Notes under the pieces: generated by a model | The model's input: only the letters and a program-made list of their open reading frames with translations | Database searches by the model: none | Told to the model about the DNA's origin: nothing | Made by a program: the position numbers and the translations under genes | In this document: one piece after another, positions 33,715-50,346 of the stretch | Position numbering within the stretch: position 1 is the stretch's first letter | Layout of the letters: every line of letters begins with the position of its first letter | Source: a virus | Taxonomy: Duplodnaviria > Heunggongvirae > Uroviricota > Caudoviricetes | Direction: 5' to 3' (one strand) | Length of the DNA: 64,000 bases | IMG/VR virus record: IMGVR_UViG_2718217789_000006

Positions 33715-36111
33715 TTAAGAATCAGCCTGACTCGGGATCAGTTTTTGCCAGATAACTGAAACGTATTTTGCCTGGTAACGGGCGTCATCAAGTGCATTAT
33801 GGCGCTCACCTTCGAATGGAATAGCCGTTCTGGCATCGAAGTCTATGGCTTTCCCCAGCTCAACGATTGTGCGCACATCGCGATCGTTGTAGTAACGCCA
33901 CGGGCAGGGGATCCCCTGCCGTTCGTATGAACGGCGCAAAATCGTGTTGTCGAAGTTGGCTCCATTTCCCCAGACCTGAACAAAGAATTCACCGGAGTTT
34001 TCGTCGATAAATTCCCGCAATTGTAACAGTGCATCATCTAACGGGATTTCATCGGTCATAATGGCAGATTGCGCTTCGCGTGATTGCTTAAGCCACCATT
34101 TAATGGTGTCCCGATCAATGACTCCGCCAGCAGTTTCCAGATCGATAGTCTTACTAAATTCCGGTCCCATATCTCCGGTTTGCGGATCGAAAAATATTGC
34201 ACCTATTGAGATGATCGGGGCATCAGGATTTTTTCCCATGGTTTCAAGGTCGATCATTAGATGGTCACACGTCCTGCTGGTGGATGTGATAACGTGATGA
34301 CCGTTCACCTTAATTGAGTGATCTGCCGTCTCGCCAGTTTCATTATCGCTATCGTGATGCTGATTGCCGCCAGTGTTCTCCTTGTGTGGATGTTCAGCGC
34401 CTTCCATTTCCTCCGGATCATCTTCCTGAACTTCAACCAGGTTCTTGTCATCGAATGTTTCCTGGTATGTTGCGTCGCCCATCACCGCGCCACAATCAGG
34501 GCAGTTGCCGCCGCCGGTCTGACCGCAGGTGGTGCAGATCTTTTCCGGTTCCTGTTGCACTACTGGTTCAGGTTGTTTCGTTTCTGGCTGATTCTGGTAC
34601 ACAGAATCGCGGGTCTGGATCCCCTTAATCCATTTCGGATCATTCGGGTCGCTAATCCCTTCAACAAATTCTCCGCGAGAGGCAGCCAGTAATTTGTCTG
34701 CATCGACAGGATTTTGGGGCGGAATGTTTTTCCGGGCTTCATGGAGTTCTGCCCGCAGTTTCTGATATTTCGCATCAACAGAATTTACCTGTGACTGAGC
34801 ATCCAGCGGCTGCGTGTCCTGATGATGTTCAGTTGCATCCGGTTCCACTGTTTCAGCCGTTGCCTGTTCATCTGCCATTGCGCAAGATGGTTGCGGTTTT
34901 TCTTCATCATTTTCTTCTTCTGTTTCCTGCTTAGCAGCCAGTTCGCGGTTAACTTCTTCCAGGATATCTTTTTCCGGTGTATGTCGTGCAGCAGTGAGAG
35001 TTTCCTTGCTGGGGTTCTCGTGATCAGTCTCCGTTAAGTAGGCGTTGATATACCCCTGAAGGCGTCCCGGGTAGTGATAAAACTCAGGGTGAGCGCTCCG
35101 GATAAGTGCAAAAATAGCGGCGCGGGAATAGTCCAGAATACCCGGGGTTGCGCGAAGTGCTGCGGACCATTCTTTGAACGGACTTTCTCTTTTCAGGACG
35201 ATTTCTTTTGCGCGACGATAAACGCTGCCCGGAATTTCATAAATATTAAAATCCATCGGAAGTGTGGCTGCTGCAATCTCCACATCCAGCGTATCGAAGG
35301 TGTGTACTAAATTCGGATTGCGATCGGTTTTGTTCCCGCCACCGGCATTTGCACCGGAAGCCGTACGGGTGATACGCGAAACACGATTTCCTTTCATCCA
35401 CTCTTTTGTCAGCAGACCCCGATCAGTGTAGTCAGCGTCCAGGTATGCCTCGAAAAAAGCAGTTATCAGTCCCAGGTCTGAATTACCGGGATTAGGGAAA
35501 ACTTTGTCAGTGTCGCGTGCCAGTTTATGAAGGTCGCGAATCTCCAGCGGGTCGAGCAGCTTTGTGTTGTGGGAAATGGCCAGGGCAGTAACAGCCGGCA
35601 GTTCTTCCGCCCGTGCTATATGTAATGCCTGAAGTTCTTCCCGTGCAACGTGCGTTACTGGTTTTTCGCTGCCGTGTTGCGCAAGCCAGCGAATGGGCAG
35701 CTCCTGACCAGAAACCGGCAGGAGCATATTCTCCTCAATCTCCGTCATGTCTTCGCCGTTGACGTTGGTATTGTCAGTACTGGCTGGTTTCTCCTGCACG
35801 GAGGGAGAGGGCGCGATAAATACCATTGTAATGCCATCTTCCCCGCCTTTTTCGTATCGGTTGCAGAATTCGGTATCAAACACGCCTTCAGGTGGAAGGT
35901 CATTCACAACGGGTAAATGGACGCGAACGGGTTTTTTAAAGTCGTCTTCATCATAATCGTTGTCATCCATTGCGGTAATGCAGCGGGAGATGGCAACAGA
36001 TAATTTTTTTGCTGTAGTCCAGTAAAAACCACCTTTAATTCCCAGACGTTTTCTGACTTTGTCATTTTTTGCTTCGCAATATAGCGCAAATTCTTCTTTA
36101 TCAGTGCTCAT
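33715..36111 (-). CDS. Large early protein with C-terminal DEDDh-type 3'-5' exonuclease domain
   Basis: 798 aa; C-terminal …MIDLETMG…VWGNGANFD…HNALDDARY… (DnaQ-like motifs); acidic central region; CxxC…CxxC zinc-ribbon-like motif [16 protein letters not shown]. Confidence 0.65.
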
Positions 36112-36227
36112 TGATAAACCTCATTACAGATTTAAGGGTGAACAAATCCCTGCCATTGCTGGCATTTTTAATCCGTTGGTATGGTGTTAATATGGCTGGA
36201 GGGTTATCCAGCCGGTGTTTCGTTATT

Positions 36228-36394
36228 CAGGTACAGCGATACTTTTTTTTTACCGGGAGGCATTCACCAGAAATTTTTTGCTCGTCTCTTGCCTGGAGGC
36301 AGGATTCTTTACTGGCATAAATTCCGGTAATCACATTCTGTGATTCACCCGTTATAAGAAAAACCGTCATCATCAGTGCAAATGCTGAAGTCAT
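36228..36394 (-). CDS. Small membrane protein, YdfD-like position (about 55 aa)
   Basis: ATG overlaps the dicB-like stop (ATGA); hydrophobic N-terminus MTSAFALMMTVFLITG…; below ORF-track cut-off. Confidence 0.3.
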
Positions 36395-36579
36395 TGACGT
36401 TCTCCGAAAATACCAAGTTCAAGAAGAGCAATTCGGGAAAGTATGGAATTATCATTGAGCAGATAAGGCTCATATTTCCTCATATTAATGGCATCTTCAG
36501 TAAACTCCCGGTTACTGAGCAGAACACCAATATCAAAACAACCTTCAGACGTATTAACGTTTGGTAATAACGTTTCCAT
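36391..36579 (-). CDS. dicB: Cell-division inhibitor DicB homolog
   Basis: 62 aa, METLLPNVNTSEGCFDIGV…FTEDAIN… closely resembles K-12 DicB. Confidence 0.8.
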   Translation of the reverse strand: METLLPNVNTSEGCFDIGVLLSNREFTEDAINMRKYEPYLLNDNSILSRIALLELGIFGERQ

Positions 36580-36756
36580 TATCGCGTCCTCAACAATGAA
36601 TTTTGTGATGCAGTGCCTGGTGCCTCCAGGTGACGTTAACCAGTTAACAATTAACGCCGGATTAGTTGATGCTCGTTACGCCCGTAAAATACCGCCTTAC
36701 TGCTTTAACTGTTCCGCGTGCGCATAGCCGCATTCACCGCATCACAAAATTCACTT

Positions 36757-36796
36757 TAAAAAGGGCGGATATCCGTTTCCGCCGAATCACCAGAAA
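36757..36796 (-). ncRNA. dicF: DicF-like small RNA candidate upstream of dicB
   Basis: Minus-strand sequence TTTCTGGTGATTC-GGCGGAAACGGATATCCGCC-CTTTTT: DicF-like 5' end plus terminator hairpin and U-run, about 180 nt upstream of dicB. Confidence 0.4.
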
Positions 36797-37098
36797 AGTG
36801 ATAACAGAGGGCGTTGCAGCGGGGTTGTCACTTAAGCGTATGGTCAACCTGACAACCCGGTGTCCTCAGCGGGGAAGGAATAACCCCGCCATACTTACCG
36901 CCGCGCCATTTCGCGGATTGCCACAACCGGAAGCGCACGGTCGAATTAAATTTAACGACTACCTACAGAGAGACGAACTTCGCCGTGCGCTTTCGCGTTA
37001 TGCCCTGACTTTTCAGGGATATATCCTTTTCAGTAAACTGTCAGTGCCGGATTCTTATCCGTGTCCGGCGCACGCACTCTACCTCACCTGTGAATAAA

Positions 37099-37473
37099 TT
37101 AATGATTAATTGATATTTTGTTGTTTGATTCAACTTTCCCATCGGATGTGTGATGCTTTAAATCACAGGAATTAATACTGCTTGCTGTAAAATGATTTTC
37201 AAGGGGAGCTATTCGAATCCCTTTCTTTTTCATTAACAAGCCAAATCCTTTATTAATGATGTTCATTAATTCCAGGAAGTATTTTTCATGTAAATTCTGG
37301 TTATCAGAGAGCTGCTTCTCTTCGCACAGACCGATAAAGGCACGACGCACGTTACCGGATATAGTATCGATGGTTTCTTTTTCTACGGTACTCAGGTCAA
37401 GAGTCGCCAGTTGGGAACGAACTATATTCGCTGCCATTTCCTGGAATTGCATTGGTAAATCTTTAAATTCCAT
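37099..37473 (-). CDS. Hypothetical early-left operon protein (124 aa)
   Basis: ORF co-oriented with neighbours in the early-left operon. Confidence 0.45.
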   Translation of the reverse strand: MEFKDLPMQFQEMAANIVRSQLATLDLSTVEKETIDTISGNVRRAFIGLCEEKQLSDNQNLHEKYFLELMNIINKGFGLLMKKKGIRIAPLENHFTASSINSCDLKHHTSDGKVESNNKISINH

Positions 37474-37495
37474 TATTAGCCTCGTTGGTTAGCTA

Positions 37496-37714
37496 TTAAC
37501 GCGGGTATGTAATCATTCTGGCAATGCTTAATGCCGCTGCTTTTTCCAGATTAGTGATATCCTGCTCCAGAGCGGACAGATTTTCAGCCTGCTTAGCCCT
37601 GGCTTCATTGGCCCATTTCAGATCCTGCGCTGCATTAATTTTCTGGTGCATCCACTCATAAAGTTCATCATCGGTATAGTCTGGCGCGATGATGACGGGT
37701 TCTCGTTTCTGCAT
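37496..37714 (-). CDS. Hypothetical early-left operon protein (72 aa)
   Basis: ORF co-oriented with neighbours in the early-left operon. Confidence 0.4.
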   Translation of the reverse strand: MQKREPVIIAPDYTDDELYEWMHQKINAAQDLKWANEARAKQAENLSALEQDITNLEKAAALSIARMITYPR

Positions 37715-37743
37715 ACTGATTCCTCGCGGTGCTGTTTCGCTTA

Positions 37744-37872
37744 TCAGCCGTTAGATTTTGCCGAACTGGAAAGCGCCTGTTTAAATTCGTTGAAGCTGAG
37801 AGCTTCTTCGCCTTCGGCAAGACCTTCGAAGTATTCTTCGTAAGCCTTTTCCATGATTGTGTCGAAATCCAT
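37744..37872 (-). CDS. YdfA-like small protein (42 aa)
   Basis: Minus-strand translation MDFDTIMEKAYEEYFEGLAEGEEALSFNEFKQALSSSAKSNG; start 1 nt downstream of the preceding gene's stop; below ORF-track cut-off. Confidence 0.4.
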   Translation of the reverse strand: MDFDTIMEKAYEEYFEGLAEGEEALSFNEFKQALSSSAKSNG

Positions 37873-37873
37873 A

Positions 37874-38110
37874 TCACTCACCTGAGTTTCTTTCCAGCCA
37901 GCGACGGGCACCATTTTCGGTTTTAAACGTTTTGCTTTTGGTATACGTCATCGCGGTGAACGTACCGTCCTGGTTGGGGAACACGCCACATACCAGAGAT
38001 TCGCTGTTGCCAAGATCGATAGTATCCATGCTGACCTCATTTCCCCTTAACGCCGGGGTAGCGGAACAAAAACCTGCTGCATAGTTATTAAAGTTGAACC
38101 CTGCCGTCAT
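37874..38110 (-). CDS. Hypothetical early-left operon protein (78 aa), first gene after the left operator region
   Basis: ORF immediately downstream of the OL-like operators. Confidence 0.45.
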   Translation of the reverse strand: MTAGFNFNNYAAGFCSATPALRGNEVSMDTIDLGNSESLVCGVFPNQDGTFTAMTYTKSKTFKTENGARRWLERNSGE

Positions 38111-38215: not shown

Positions 38216-38252
38216 TACCCATAGGTATTTAAAAAGTAAATACCCATGGGTA
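38216..38252. promoter_or_regulatory. OL-like operator pair (TACCCATAGGTA and TACCCATGGGTA) overlapping a leftward promoter
   Basis: Two 12-bp TACC-N4-GGTA sites 13 bp apart at 38216..38227 and 38241..38252; minus-strand TTTACC-17 nt-TAAATA promoter-like elements overlap them. Confidence 0.5.
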
Positions 38253-38294: not shown

Positions 38295-38714
38295 CTATGA
38301 TGCGTTTTGTGCTTTCTTTTTACGGATTTCTTCGTAGATCATATTGTAATACTGTTTTTTCTCTTCAAGAGTTTTTAATAATTTATCCGCTTCACTTTCT
38401 GGCAGTTCGTCTAAGAGATCTAAAAAAATACGTTGTCGTGGCGTTAGAACCCTTGTTTCATAACTGGAGGCTGTGTTCGTTGATGATGAAACGATACCAT
38501 CCATCCATCCCCGGGGTAACCCAAAGGACTCTTCGATAATCTCCACCATATCATCAGCGATCCGTTTTTTTCCCTTTTTCCCCTCTGGGTACAACATTCT
38601 TGATACATAAGAAGGCTCGCGCCCGATCTTTCTGGCCACGTTAACCGCTTTACCATCGCATTTCTCATCACGAATTTTGATGAGTTGCTGTCGTCTAAAT
38701 TCATATTTGTCCAT
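38295..38714 (-). CDS. Immunity repressor, DicA/RacR-like, lacking a C-terminal peptidase domain
   Basis: 139 aa; HTH …NVARKIGREPSYVSRML…; C-terminal …LTPRQRIFLDLLDELPESEADKLL… resembles the DicA C-terminus; divergent to the cro-like gene. Confidence 0.6.
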   Translation of the reverse strand: MDKYEFRRQQLIKIRDEKCDGKAVNVARKIGREPSYVSRMLYPEGKKGKKRIADDMVEIIEESFGLPRGWMDGIVSSSTNTASSYETRVLTPRQRIFLDLLDELPESEADKLLKTLEEKKQYYNMIYEEIRKKKAQNAS

Positions 38715-43316: not shown

Positions 43317-43494
43317 TTTTATGGATCACCTTTCTGATTGATTTCATATTGGCGAGGTGACGTGAGTTAAGTAGAATTGCTGCGGGTGCCTGAGGCTGTC
43401 TGCCTCAGGCATGAACACCAAAAGGCAGATAGAGAAAGCCCCAGTTAACATTACGCGTCCTGTAAGACGCTCAACATTAATCTGAGGCATATGG

Positions 43495-44619
43495 ATGCGG
43501 ATGAAAGAATTAAATAAATTCAGAGTGATAGACCTCTTTTGTGGGGCAGGTGGATTATCTTATGGTTTTCTTCATGGAGAGATGTCTGACTACTTTGAAA
43601 GTATCCTTGCTATTGATAATAATGCTGCAGCTATAAATACCTACAATGCCAATTTTGGTTTGCATGGAGTTCAGGCAAATATTGAGGAGTGGGCATCCAG
43701 CAATACTGTTCCTGAGGCTGATGTGGTCATAGGTGGCCCCCCGTGTCAGGGATTCAGTTTATTGAATAAGAATCGTTATGGTGATCACCGAAGAGCATTG
43801 TGGGAGCCTTATATGGATGTCATTGAGCGTTCAAGGGCTTGTATGTTCGTCATGGAAAATGTCCCCGGATTGCTGATAAGCGATGAGTTTGCGGACATTA
43901 CGTTTAGAGCGAAATCCATGGGCTTTATTCTGCTTAATCCAATGGTGTTGAATACTGCTGACTATGGAGTACCTCAGACAAGAAAACGAACGATAGCAAT
44001 CGGTATCAAACGAGAACTCTTCGATGTGCATAGTATTCCGGCGTTCCCGCCAGCACCAACGCATCGTTCCCCTGATAAGGATGTCGCTTTGCCTGAATGG
44101 GTCTGTACGCGTGATGCAATTGGTGACTTACCTGCTCCTGTTGGAACTGATATTCGTAATGAACTTCCTCCGCTGAACTTACATTTTGGGCGTAATCCCA
44201 CACCTGTTTCTCTGGAGCGATATAAAGCGGTTCCACCAGGAGGTAACCGTTTCGATTTACAGAAAAAAAGACCTGATATAACCCCGGCGTGCTGGCTAAA
44301 AAAGAAATCTGGAGGGACCGATTTGTTTGGACGTCTGTGGTGGGACAGACCTTCAGTAACGATTCGTACTGAGTTTTTCAAACCGGAGAAAGGGCGATAT
44401 TTACATCCGGAAGAGGATCGGCCAATAACTCATCGTGAGGCAGCGAGATTAATGTCTTTTCCTGATAATTTCATTTTTACCGGTTCAAAAACTGAGATTG
44501 CAAAGCAGATCGGGAATGCTGTTCCACCGCTATTTGCGGCAAAAATCGCACAATATGTGTATGGAGTTTTGCAGGGACGGTATAAGAATAACATCAGTAA
44601 GAATAGTCAAGCAGCCTGA
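43495..44619 (+). CDS. DNA cytosine-5 methyltransferase
   Basis: Motif I DLFCGAGG, motif IV GGPPCQGFS, motif VI ENVPG; GAGG RBS 7 nt upstream. Confidence 0.85.
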   Translation: MRMKELNKFRVIDLFCGAGGLSYGFLHGEMSDYFESILAIDNNAAAINTYNANFGLHGVQANIEEWASSNTVPEADVVIGGPPCQGFSLLNKNRYGDHRRALWEPYMDVIERSRACMFVMENVPGLLISDEFADITFRAKSMGFILLNPMVLNTADYGVPQTRKRTIAIGIKRELFDVHSIPAFPPAPTHRSPDKDVALPEWVCTRDAIGDLPAPVGTDIRNELPPLNLHFGRNPTPVSLERYKAVPPGGNRFDLQKKRPDITPACWLKKKSGGTDLFGRLWWDRPSVTIRTEFFKPEKGRYLHPEEDRPITHREAARLMSFPDNFIFTGSKTEIAKQIGNAVPPLFAAKIAQYVYGVLQGRYKNNISKNSQAA

Positions 44620-44632
44620 AGGAAATCCAGAA

Positions 44633-45511
44633 ATGAATGGAGATTTGGTTGACAGCATAGTTGGTTTTGCTGAAGCCAGAAAGGAGTTTCATGCCCAATT
44701 GTTACTGAATACGCTCACAATTAATACTGCCGGAGTTGTTAGTAACGCAGATAGCAGTAACAAAAACAGTAAAGCTATAGCAAGAGAAATTGCTCGCTTC
44801 TTGCAGGCTGAAACGATTGGTGAACGTGTTGCAGGGCAAACATCTGGTAATCAGTTTGAGAGTATCTGCGCAGAGTTTATAGAAAAAACCTTTTTTAAAC
44901 TCAGCCACTTACGCCCTGGAAAATGGAATGTACATCAGGTTTCTGGTAGAAACAGATTAGAGATAGCTAAATATGAACAATATGCCCATCTTATAGCATT
45001 GGATAGTGCTGCAAAAAGTAATCCTCAGCTAGCTGCTGCACTGGGGAGTGATTATACGATTTCACCAGATATTATTGTTGAAAGAGAACCTGAATGTGAT
45101 CAAGTTATCAACAGTCCTGAATTACTGGTGGATGATTCTGTTACCCGCATGTCAGCTCTCAGGAGTTCGAATGGTGGGAAACCAATATTACACGCAAGTA
45201 TTTCCTGCAAATGGACAATAAGAAGCGACCGGGCCCAGAATGCTCGTTCTGAGGCATTAAATCTTATTCGCAACCGTAAGGGAAATCTCCCTCATGTAAT
45301 GGTTGTTACTGCTGAGCCTACTCCAAGTCGTCTGGCGTCTATTGCTCTTGGTACTGGTGATATAGATTGCGTGTATCATTTTGCGCTTTATGAACTTATA
45401 TCAGCAGTTGAAATACTGGGGCTCAGCGATGCAGCTGACATGCTTTCCGTGATGGTTAATGGTAAAAGATTAAAGGATATTTCTGATCTTCCCTTGGATC
45501 TTGCAGTCTGA
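44633..45511 (+). CDS. Putative type II restriction endonuclease paired with the methyltransferase
   Basis: 292-aa ORF starting 13 nt after the methyltransferase stop with AAGGA RBS; PD…K-like segment (…SPDIIVERE…ISCKWT…); assignment by context. Confidence 0.45.
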   Translation: MNGDLVDSIVGFAEARKEFHAQLLLNTLTINTAGVVSNADSSNKNSKAIAREIARFLQAETIGERVAGQTSGNQFESICAEFIEKTFFKLSHLRPGKWNVHQVSGRNRLEIAKYEQYAHLIALDSAAKSNPQLAAALGSDYTISPDIIVEREPECDQVINSPELLVDDSVTRMSALRSSNGGKPILHASISCKWTIRSDRAQNARSEALNLIRNRKGNLPHVMVVTAEPTPSRLASIALGTGDIDCVYHFALYELISAVEILGLSDAADMLSVMVNGKRLKDISDLPLDLAV

Positions 45512-49843: not shown

Positions 49844-49951
49844 TATTGCAGAATTAACCGGGTATCAGGTACGCCCCGAAAATTTTAAATGTCTCACAAT
49901 TCAGACGGTTGACAGTTGTCTGGTTTGCGGGGAGTTTGTTAAAAGAAACTG

Positions 49952-50067
49952 GCATGGTGAATCCCCCTGAGCGGAGGGGCATATCAGCGCAGGTGTTTCT
50001 ACTCTATCCTTTCTGTGCGGGTTCAGGTGCTGATACTGAACTCACCGGGAGGCACCCGGCACCATGC
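49952..50067 (+). ncRNA. Conserved structured non-coding element (candidate sRNA), copy 2
   Basis: Same reverse-complementary outer arms and flank hairpins as copy 1, with a different central segment. Confidence 0.35.
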
Positions 50068-50091
50068 ATATGGTTAACAGACACGTAGCGA

Positions 50092-50117
50092 AGCCCCTCT
50101 CCGGAGGGGCTTTTTTT
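50092..50117 (+). terminator. Intrinsic terminator upstream of nanS-p
   Basis: AGCCCCTC-TCCG-GAGGGGCT hairpin followed by T7. Confidence 0.65.
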
Positions 50118-50346
50118 ATGGGCAAAAAAAGCCCGCGCTGGGAGACGCGGGCGGCAAGGAATAAACAACAAAACGTGAAGTAATATTTCAGCTGGCGAAT
50201 AATACCCCATGGTAATCACTCTGCGCAACTGCGCGGCCTTTTTCGAATTGCGGGCTGTAAGTCTCCCTTCTGCCATTGTCCTGTAACTTCCGAACTTCAG
50301 CCCGCTCTTTATCTGATTCAGTACACTATCCCGGCCGGGAGGATTC

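What the first reader, a model, noticed from the sequence alone, without database searches (positions are those of the whole stretch)
36228..36796. dicF-dicB-like cell-division inhibition module in the early-left operon of prophage 2
A DicB homolog, an overlapping small membrane ORF and an upstream sequence resembling the DicF sRNA follow the K-12 Qin gene order. The DicF-like sequence differs from what I remember of K-12 DicF in its central part, so its target range may differ.
Basis: partly seen in the sequence, partly recalled or inferred. Interest (0 to 1): 0.45.

Follow-up and report, generated by a model that had tools for sequence, protein, structure and literature searches.

The report
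Prophage dicB module, shortened DicF
This stretch of an E. coli O157:H7 prophage is a real copy of the known dicF-dicB cell-division-inhibition module, but its small RNA is a shortened, uncatalogued version that has lost the part known to silence the division gene ftsZ.

Summary
On the minus strand of a lambdoid prophage of E. coli O157:H7 lie, in K-12 Qin order, ydfA/B/C homologues, a conserved leader, a DicF-like RNA gene (36796-36758), a structured spacer, dicB (36579-36391) and an overlapping ydfD homologue (36394-36227).

dicB is a full-length Pfam DicB, 63% identical to K-12, with the experimentally essential N-terminus kept. The ydfD homologue is frameshifted in an A9 tract.

The DicF-like RNA is 39 nt instead of 58. 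Its first 10 nt, the base of the terminator stem and the U tail match K-12, and the flanks are about 97% identical. The hairpin top, which pairs with the ftsZ ribosome-binding site, is replaced by 10 unrelated bases. Rfam's DicF model does not detect it, and predicted ftsZ pairing is lost.

This allele is in 442 of 5426 complete E. coli genomes, mostly O157:H7, and in none of 50,697 phage records. I found no description of it.

Most likely DicB alone inhibits division here. The short RNA probably serves as terminator and processing unit, and at most as a weak 5'-seed regulator. The module is known biology with a new allelic variant, so interest is modest.

The parts
36758..36796 (-). Short DicF allele (39 nt with U tail): a 13-nt single-stranded 5' end UUUCUGGUGAUUC, a 6-bp GC hairpin with an 8-nt loop, then CUUUUU
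   Evidence: Alignment to K-12 dicF; fold -10.7 kcal/mol; no Rfam DicF hit even at E<=10, while K-12 scores 76.7 bits
36764..36783 (-). Intrinsic terminator stem-loop GGCGGA-AACGGATA-TCCGCC, followed by CTTTTT
   Evidence: Terminator scan; fold
36797..36938 (-). Conserved leader. It corresponds to the 5' part of the RNase III-generated 190-nt DicF precursor of K-12
   Evidence: 96-99% column conservation over 122 distinct prophage sequences, higher than in the dicB CDS; RNase III / RNase E processing described in PMC10448788; fold
36595..36757 (-). Structured spacer between DicF and dicB: a 21-bp closing helix (36755-36735 with 36615-36595) enclosing three hairpins. It is an STnc100-like paralogue and the probable RNase III site
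   Evidence: Fold z=-5.8; RNAalifold, 41 pairs, few broken; Rfam STnc100 31.2 bits, below its threshold; model R1 finds the window's STnc100 loci at 44 and 41 bits
36391..36579 (-). dicB homologue (62 aa), Shine-Dalgarno GAGGA at 36591-36587
   Evidence: Pfam DicB 6.4e-37; 63% identity to K-12 with the N-terminal 35 aa nearly identical; PGAP dicB
36204..36394 (-). ydfD homologue (DUF1482). Its start overlaps the dicB stop (ATGA). It is frameshifted; the ORF as read is 36394-36227 (55 aa)
   Evidence: Pfam DUF1482 2.3e-14; PGAP 'frameshifted'; comparison with intact 62-aa copies
36243..36251 (-). A9 homopolymer that causes the ydfD frameshift (A7 in intact copies)
37099..38029 (-). Upstream genes of the same operon: ydfA homologue (38029-37874), ydfB (37872-37744), ydfC (37714-37496), and an extra orf124 (37473-37099) that K-12 Qin lacks
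   Evidence: PGAP annotation of the identical record; K-12 comparison; PHROG 6937, function unknown
38295..38714 (-). Prophage repressor gene in the dicA position, same orientation as the operon
   Evidence: PHROG 5736 transcriptional regulator 6.4e-70; only the C-terminal 46 aa resemble DicA (33%)

Best explanation
This is a dicBF-type early-left module of a lambdoid prophage. When the prophage repressor is relieved, one transcript runs ydfABC-orf124-leader-DicF-spacer-dicB-ydfD. DicB is the active division inhibitor; by homology it acts through MinC and also blocks ManYZ-dependent phage entry. The DicF position holds a short allele. It keeps everything needed to make and end the RNA: the conserved RNase III/RNase E leader, the 5' 10 nt, the GGCGG/CCGCC terminator base, the U tail and the downstream 21-bp RNase III-type helix. 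It has lost the hairpin top that carries the anti-ftsZ sequence. It therefore most likely works in cis, as the attenuator and processing unit in front of toxic dicB, and in trans at most as a weakened 5'-seed regulator, not as an ftsZ repressor. The ydfD lysis gene is probably inactivated by a +2 slip in a poly-A tract. Shown: identities, synteny, structures, allele distribution and loss of predicted pairing. Inferred: transcription, processing, DicB activity and absence of ftsZ control.
For: Synteny and about 97% flank identity with K-12 Qin. DicB matches Pfam at 6.4e-37. Its N-terminal 14 residues match K-12 except K2E; K2 tolerates substitution and the critical L5 is kept (PMC4967827). The terminator is predicted. 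[quoted passage not shown] That region is absent here. Cofold binding energies, K-12 versus short allele: ftsZ -10.8 vs -4.0, xylR -15.8 vs -8.6, pykA -11.3 vs -7.5 kcal/mol. The allele is a stable lineage: 442 of 5426 genomes, four sequence variants that differ only in the loop or by one G-U-compatible stem change, and an invariant 5' 13 nt. Removing even 1-5 C-terminal residues of YdfD weakens lysis (PMC8835842), and the window copy replaces the last 12.
Against: I had no expression, Hfq-binding or phenotype data for this allele. The pairing calculations are simple cofold energies on four K-12 targets only. pchA and other EHEC targets were not tested, and no genome-wide prediction was possible. 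A 7-bp seed with Hfq can be enough for regulation, so trans activity is not excluded. An 8-bp wobble-rich pairing of the 5' end with the ftsZ Shine-Dalgarno region exists. Invariance of the 5' 13 nt does not show selection, because the whole leader is equally conserved. I could not read Melson & Kendall 2019 or Faubladier & Bouche 1994, which may already show this allele.
Confidence: 0.65

Rival explanations
1. The short allele is a genuine trans-acting, Hfq-dependent sRNA with its own target set, driven by the 13-nt 5' end UUUCUGGUGAUUC. It would be an extra DicF-family regulator in O157:H7, beyond the four counted copies.
For: It has the minimal sRNA architecture: a free 5' end, a GC hairpin and a U tail. 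The 5' 13 nt are invariant in 26 loci, including E. albertii. It occurs in 8% of complete E. coli genomes. Related phages carry different 5' regions and hairpin tops at the same position, as expected for a modular sRNA locus. Residual 7-bp pairing with xylR and pykA remains.
Against: No transcript or target data. Conservation of the seed is no higher than that of the surrounding leader. Pairing to all validated K-12 targets is weakened. The tail has only five U.
Confidence: 0.3
2. The short RNA still represses ftsZ, through a different pairing, so the module keeps both arms of division inhibition.
For: An 8-bp pairing (three G-U) of nt 1-8 with ftsZ -14..-7, covering the Shine-Dalgarno sequence, is possible.
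Against: Canonical DicF has the same 5' pairing, yet the 3'-region mutant DicF9 does not repress ftsZ (PMC5069750). Overall binding energy is -4.0 vs -10.8 kcal/mol.
Confidence: 0.07
3. The whole module is a decaying relic with no current function. The short hairpin and the ydfD frameshift would both be degradation.
For: ydfD is frameshifted. The allele is absent from 50,697 sequenced phage genomes. O157:H7 has several other dicBF copies that could cover the function.
Against: dicB, the leader, the spacer and the terminator are intact and highly conserved. The hairpin is a clean replacement that preserves stem base and tail, not a random deletion. The prophage retains int, xis, replication, Q, lysis and terminase genes.
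Confidence: 0.15

Closest known systems
dicBF operon of the Qin cryptic prophage, E. coli K-12 (ydfABC-dicF-dicB-ydfD)
   Same: Gene order and orientation relative to the repressor. Leader and spacer are about 97% identical. dicB and ydfD overlap by ATGA. The terminator sits at the DicF position.
   Different: DicF is 39 instead of 58 nt, with a replaced hairpin top. DicB is only 63% identical (C-terminal half diverged). YdfD is 44% identical and frameshifted. There is an extra orf124. The repressor differs, resembling DicA only in its C-terminal 46 aa.
DicF sRNA (Rfam RF00039)
   Same: Syntenic position, first 10 nt, GGCGG/CCGCC stem base, U tail, and flanking processing signals.
   Different: It fails the covariance model, with no hit at E<=10. 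It lacks the anti-ftsZ segment, and nt 11-13 differ so xylR pairing drops from 11 to 7 bp.
Other DicF alleles in O157:H7 and relatives
   Same: Same flanks and scaffold.
   Different: The canonical allele is in 3975 of 5426 genomes. A 56-nt allele with a Rac-like hairpin is in 366. The short allele is in 442. Typical O157:H7 genomes show 3 canonical and 1 of the 56-nt allele, matching the published four copies of 52-56 nt in EDL933 (PMC5331693). The short allele comes on top of these.
kil/kilR leaders of Rac and Stx phages
   Same: Same cassette in front of a division inhibitor: a variable 5' region, a GGCGG..CCGCC hairpin, a U tail, and an STnc100-like element ending just before the Shine-Dalgarno sequence.
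   Different: The downstream gene is kil rather than dicB. The 5' regions and hairpin tops are unrelated.
STnc100 (Rfam RF02076) / PasD prophage sRNAs
   Same: The DicF-dicB spacer shares the closing helix, the GGUGAAU motif and the CACCNGGAGGCACCNGGCAC hairpin. The match is reciprocal between covariance models.
   Different: It scores below the Rfam threshold (31.2 vs 47 bits). It lies inside an operon directly upstream of dicB rather than in the late region.

Membership tests
DicF sRNA (Rfam RF00039) | Scores at or above the family's covariance-model gathering threshold (48 bits) | tested here: not met
   No DicF hit in 36100-37200 even at E<=10. The K-12 control scores 76.7 bits.
DicF sRNA (Rfam RF00039) | Lies between the ydfC leader and dicB in a dicBF operon | tested here: met
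   Alignment to K-12 Qin and annotation of the identical record.
DicF sRNA (Rfam RF00039) | 3' region complementary to the ftsZ ribosome-binding site | tested here: not met
   The segment is replaced. Cofold -4.0 vs -10.8 kcal/mol, with no pairing at the RBS.
DicF sRNA (Rfam RF00039) | 5' single-stranded seed used for xylR | tested here: inconclusive
   Nt 1-10 are identical and nt 11-13 differ. xylR pairing is 7 bp vs 11 bp, -8.6 vs -15.8 kcal/mol.
DicF sRNA (Rfam RF00039) | Rho-independent terminator forming the 3' end | tested here: met
   6-bp GC stem plus CUUUUU.
DicF sRNA (Rfam RF00039) | Released by RNase E / RNase III and bound by Hfq | not testable with these tools
   Only the conservation of the leader and of the 21-bp helix could be shown.
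DicB (Pfam PF05358) | Full-length match above the Pfam cut-off | tested here: met
   125.5 bits against a cut-off of 27, covering 1-62/62.
DicB (Pfam PF05358) | Intact N-terminal segment needed for activity (first 14 residues, L5) | tested here: met
   METLLPNVNTSEGC vs MKTLLPNVNTSEGC. K2 substitutions are tolerated and L5 is critical (PMC4967827).
DicB (Pfam PF05358) | MinC-dependent block of division | not testable with these tools
   Needs expression in wild-type and minC backgrounds.
YdfD / DUF1482 (Pfam PF07358) | Match above the Pfam cut-off | tested here: met
   53.5 bits against a cut-off of 25, but covering only profile positions 1-48 of 57.
YdfD / DUF1482 (Pfam PF07358) | Intact C-terminus, required for lysis in K-12 | tested here: not met
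   A9 instead of A7 changes the frame. The last 12 residues are replaced by KYRCT. The C-terminal requirement is from PMC8835842.
STnc100 (Rfam RF02076), for the DicF-dicB spacer | Scores at or above the gathering threshold (47 bits) | tested here: not met
   31.2 bits, E=1e-4. A reciprocal model gives 44.0 and 40.8 bits on true STnc100 loci, so it is a relative, not a member.

The most novel reading that the evidence does not exclude
The DicF position of lambdoid prophages is a modular sRNA locus. A conserved production scaffold (the RNase III/E leader, the GGCGG/CCGCC terminator base and an STnc100-like downstream element in front of a division-inhibitor gene) carries interchangeable seed and hairpin modules. 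The 39-nt allele would then be a distinct Hfq-dependent regulator with its own targets in O157:H7. It would have been overlooked because BLAST and Rfam searches with K-12 DicF miss it, so such strains would have five or six DicF-family RNAs rather than four.
Probability: 0.25. Interest if true: 0.5.

Novelty: new variant of a known kind. Interest (0 to 1): 0.3.

Why it matters
DicF is cited as a four-copy virulence and cell-division regulator in O157:H7. If some dicBF loci carry alleles that cannot touch ftsZ, then copy number does not equal dose. Deletion studies that target only the copies resembling K-12 leave related RNAs in place. The allele series (canonical, 56-nt, 39-nt) is also a natural experiment: it separates the 5'-seed functions of DicF from its ftsZ function, and it shows how a prophage sRNA locus diversifies while its processing scaffold stays fixed. 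For annotation, the short allele and the structured spacer are currently unlabelled in RefSeq records.

Tried and rejected
- The Rfam scan for DicF at the locus found nothing, even at E<=10. I therefore relied on syntenic alignment.
- Plain duplexfold scoring with shuffles was too permissive, because it allows long looped duplexes. A suboptimal-duplex plus accessibility filter lost the canonical interactions. Both were replaced by cofold partition-function binding energies. Mononucleotide shuffles are a poor control there, since they destroy the sRNA's own hairpin, so I used only the comparison between alleles.
- I could not retrieve Melson & Kendall 2019, Murashko & Lin-Chao 2017 or Faubladier & Bouche 1994, nor the EDL933 record NC_002655.2. 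I therefore could not map the published four copies directly.
- A linked DicF-allele/DicB-allele pairing is rejected: the window's DicB clade also occurs with canonical DicF.
- A simple deletion origin of the short allele is rejected: its loop sequence AAACGGATAT is not present in the canonical allele.
- Complements of the 5' seed elsewhere in the window are at chance level.

Full report
**What the window is**

The 1-kb region around the finding is 100% identical to chromosomes of E. coli O157:H7 (strain 9000 and the UK 'Z' series). It has related copies in 4731 of 5426 complete E. coli genomes, with six places per genome in these strains. The annotation of the identical record shows two tandem lambdoid prophages. 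The finding lies in the early-left arm of the second one. On the minus strand the order is:

- repressor (38714-38295)
- ydfA, ydfB and ydfC homologues
- an extra 124-codon ORF
- 519 nt of non-coding sequence
- dicB
- a DUF1482 gene
- a RecE-like exonuclease, xis and int

**Check of the observation**

- **dicB (36579-36391).** It matches Pfam DicB end to end at E=6.4e-37 and is 63% identical to K-12 DicB. The first 35 residues are nearly identical and the C-terminal half has diverged.
- **Overlapping ORF (36394-36227).** It shares ATGA with the dicB stop, matches DUF1482, and is 44% identical to the K-12 lysis protein YdfD.
- **Non-coding region.** A pairwise alignment with K-12 Qin is almost identical on both sides of the annotated dicF gene. 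At the dicF position the window reads TTTCTGGTGATTCGGCGGAAACGGATATCCGCCCTTTTT. K-12 reads TTTCTGGTGACGTTTGGCGGTATCAGTTTTACTCCGTGACTGCTCTGCCGCCCTTTTT.

The resemblance is homology in a syntenic position, not chance.

**Anatomy of the short DicF allele**

The RNA would be 39 nt including the U tail. It has 13 unpaired 5' nucleotides, a 6-bp GC stem with an 8-nt loop (-10.7 kcal/mol), and CUUUUU. The terminator scan picks up the same hairpin. Compared with K-12 it keeps nt 1-10, the GGCGG/CCGCC base of the stem and the tail. Nt 11-13 differ, and the 27-nt hairpin top is replaced by 10 unrelated bases.

Rfam's DicF model scores K-12 at 76.7 bits. It gives no hit in the window, even at E<=10 in a 1.1-kb search.

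**The production signals are conserved**

- **Leader.** In K-12, DicF is cut from the operon transcript. RNase III makes a 190-nt precursor, RNase E makes the 53-nt form, and the 3' end comes from termination or from RNase III cleavage 19 nt further on (PMC10448788; PMC9438474). The 137 nt upstream of the window's DicF (36938-36797) are 96-99% conserved across 122 distinct prophage sequences. That is more than the dicB coding sequence.
- **Closing helix.** Immediately after the U tail, 36755-36735 pairs with 36615-36595 in a 21-bp helix ending 8 nt before the dicB Shine-Dalgarno sequence (z=-5.8). In 16 diverse sequences this helix and three inner hairpins are kept. Changes are mostly one-sided and wobble-compatible, two pairs are compensated on both sides, and few are broken. 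A cut 19 nt beyond the 53-nt end falls inside this helix, which fits the published 72-nt species. This last point is my inference.

**What has been lost**

The 3' region of DicF pairs with the ftsZ ribosome-binding site. The DicF9 mutant in that region no longer represses ftsZ although its 5' end is intact. The 5' end serves xylR (PMC5069750). The window's allele lacks that 3' region.

Cofold binding energies:

| Target | K-12 DicF | Short allele |
|---|---|---|
| ftsZ | -10.8 kcal/mol, 37 bp across the RBS | -4.0 kcal/mol, irrelevant site |
| xylR | -15.8 kcal/mol, 11 bp, nt 5-15 at codons 4-7 | -8.6 kcal/mol, 7 bp |
| pykA | -11.3 kcal/mol | -7.5 kcal/mol |

An 8-bp, wobble-rich pairing of nt 1-8 with the ftsZ Shine-Dalgarno region is possible. 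Canonical DicF has it too, and it does not rescue DicF9. These are simple energy models on four K-12 targets. pchA and the rest of the O157 transcriptome were not tested.

**Distribution and allele classes**

Allele-specific queries against 5426 complete E. coli genomes gave three classes:

| Allele | Genomes | Source |
|---|---|---|
| Canonical | 3975 | |
| 56-nt allele with a different hairpin top (GGCGGCATCTGTTTGCCCATGAACTGATGTCCGCC) | 366 | |
| Short allele | 442, mostly O157:H7 | |

- The exact window sequence is in 43 genomes. A one-base loop variant is in 393, where it sits in a prophage next to tRNA-Ser/mtfA/yeeJ.
- The short allele is absent from 50,697 phage records. It is present in 23 IMG/VR prophage contigs and in E. 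albertii.
- Its four sequence variants differ only in the loop or by a C-to-U change that keeps a G-U pair. The 5' 13 nt never vary. The surrounding leader is equally invariant, so this does not prove selection on the seed.
- One O157:H7 genome has three canonical places and one 56-nt place. This matches the four copies of 52-56 nt listed for EDL933 (PMC5331693).
- The window's lineage has two short-allele places and six dicBF-like places in all. So the short allele most likely comes in addition to the published four. I could not read the paper that defined them.

**DicB and YdfD**

- **DicB.** The window's DicB belongs to a second common DicB clade. That clade also occurs behind canonical DicF, so RNA and protein alleles reassort. 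For K-12 DicB the first about 14 residues are essential, L5 is critical, K2 can be substituted, and the last 8 residues are dispensable (PMC4967827). The window protein differs there only by K2E. A MinC-dependent division block, and the ManYZ-linked phage exclusion described for DicB (title and abstract of PMC6832061), are therefore plausible but untested.
- **YdfD.** Intact relatives have an A7 tract and end ...VKKVSLYLNNETPAG (62 aa). The window has A9 (36251-36243) and ends ...VKKKYRCT, and PGAP flags it as frameshifted. Other loci carry other slips at the same tract. In K-12 YdfD, removing even 1-5 C-terminal residues weakens lysis (PMC8835842). This copy is therefore probably inactive.

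**A wider pattern**

The same cassette precedes kilR in K-12 Rac, and kil in Shigella Stx phage 75/02 and phage pPE4. It consists of a variable 5' region, a GGCGG...CCGCC hairpin with a hypervariable top, a U tail and the structured element. Each phage has a different 5' region and hairpin top.

The structured element is a relative of the prophage sRNA family STnc100. Rfam scores it 31.2 bits, below the threshold of 47. A model built only from dicB/kil leaders finds the window's two genuine STnc100 loci at 44.0 and 40.8 bits (E-values are rough). The variable part of this locus is thus the seed and hairpin, while the scaffold is fixed. This leaves open that the short allele is a regulator in its own right.

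**Verdict**

The module is the known dicBF unit, already reported in multiple O157:H7 prophages (PMC5069750). The new element is a 39-nt DicF allele. Rfam does not detect it, it lacks the ftsZ-pairing part, it is common in O157:H7, and I found no description of it in the searchable literature. The most likely mechanism is DicB as the sole division inhibitor, with the short RNA acting as terminator and processing unit and at most as a weak 5'-seed regulator. I put confidence in this at about 0.65. It is a new variant of a known kind, of modest interest.

Noticed in passing
window 36595-36757 (-); also 49923-50123 (+) and 1464-1636 (+): The DicF-dicB spacer is a conserved structured RNA related to the prophage sRNA family STnc100. 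Rfam scores it 31.2 bits (below threshold). A model built only from dicB/kil leaders finds the two true STnc100 loci of the window at 44 and 41 bits.
   Followed up: partly
L162:2455-2700 (K-12 Rac), L164:1440-1700 (Shigella phage 75/02 Stx), L166:1440-1695 (phage pPE4): The same terminator-hairpin plus structured-leader cassette sits directly upstream of kil/kilR, another division inhibitor. Each phage has a different 5' region and hairpin top.
   Followed up: partly
window 36797-36938 (-): The 137-nt leader upstream of DicF is 96-99% conserved over 122 distinct prophage sequences, more than the dicB coding sequence. It corresponds to the 5' part of the 190-nt DicF precursor. It contains a 36-codon GTG ORF (36938-36828) of unknown significance.
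   Followed up: partly
L015, L116, L154; 366 E. coli genomes: A third DicF allele (56 nt) has the canonical 5' 20 nt but a Rac-like hairpin top. Rfam also misses it at the gathering threshold, and it also lacks predicted ftsZ pairing (-4.3 kcal/mol). It is probably one of the 'four copies' in O157:H7.
   Followed up: partly
window 36243-36251 (-): The poly-A tract in the ydfD homologue is a frameshift hot spot. Intact copies have A7. The window and several other prophages carry different slips.
   Followed up: yes
L165:1440-1720 (Aeromonas phage AP1, MT713136.1, about 249.9-250.2 kb): A T4-like Aeromonas phage record carries a fragment nearly identical to K-12 Qin dicF, the spacer and the start of dicB, near its end. 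This looks like an assembly chimera or contamination.
   Followed up: no
window 37099-37473 (-): A 124-codon ORF (PHROG 6937, function unknown) is inserted between ydfC and the DicF leader. K-12 Qin lacks it.
   Followed up: no
window 38216-38252: A 16-bp inverted repeat lies between the repressor gene and the ydfA homologue. It could be an operator or a terminator.
   Followed up: no
window 36264-36273 (-) and 37640-37652 (-): The DicF 5' decamer TTTCTGGTGA recurs inside the ydfD homologue. A 9-nt complement of it lies inside the ydfC homologue on the same transcript. Both are near chance expectation.
   Followed up: no
window about 43501-45511 (+) and 43384-43564 (+): Prophage 2 carries a cytosine methyltransferase / NgoMIV-type restriction pair and a hok/sok-type locus (Rfam sok, 61 bits).
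   Followed up: no
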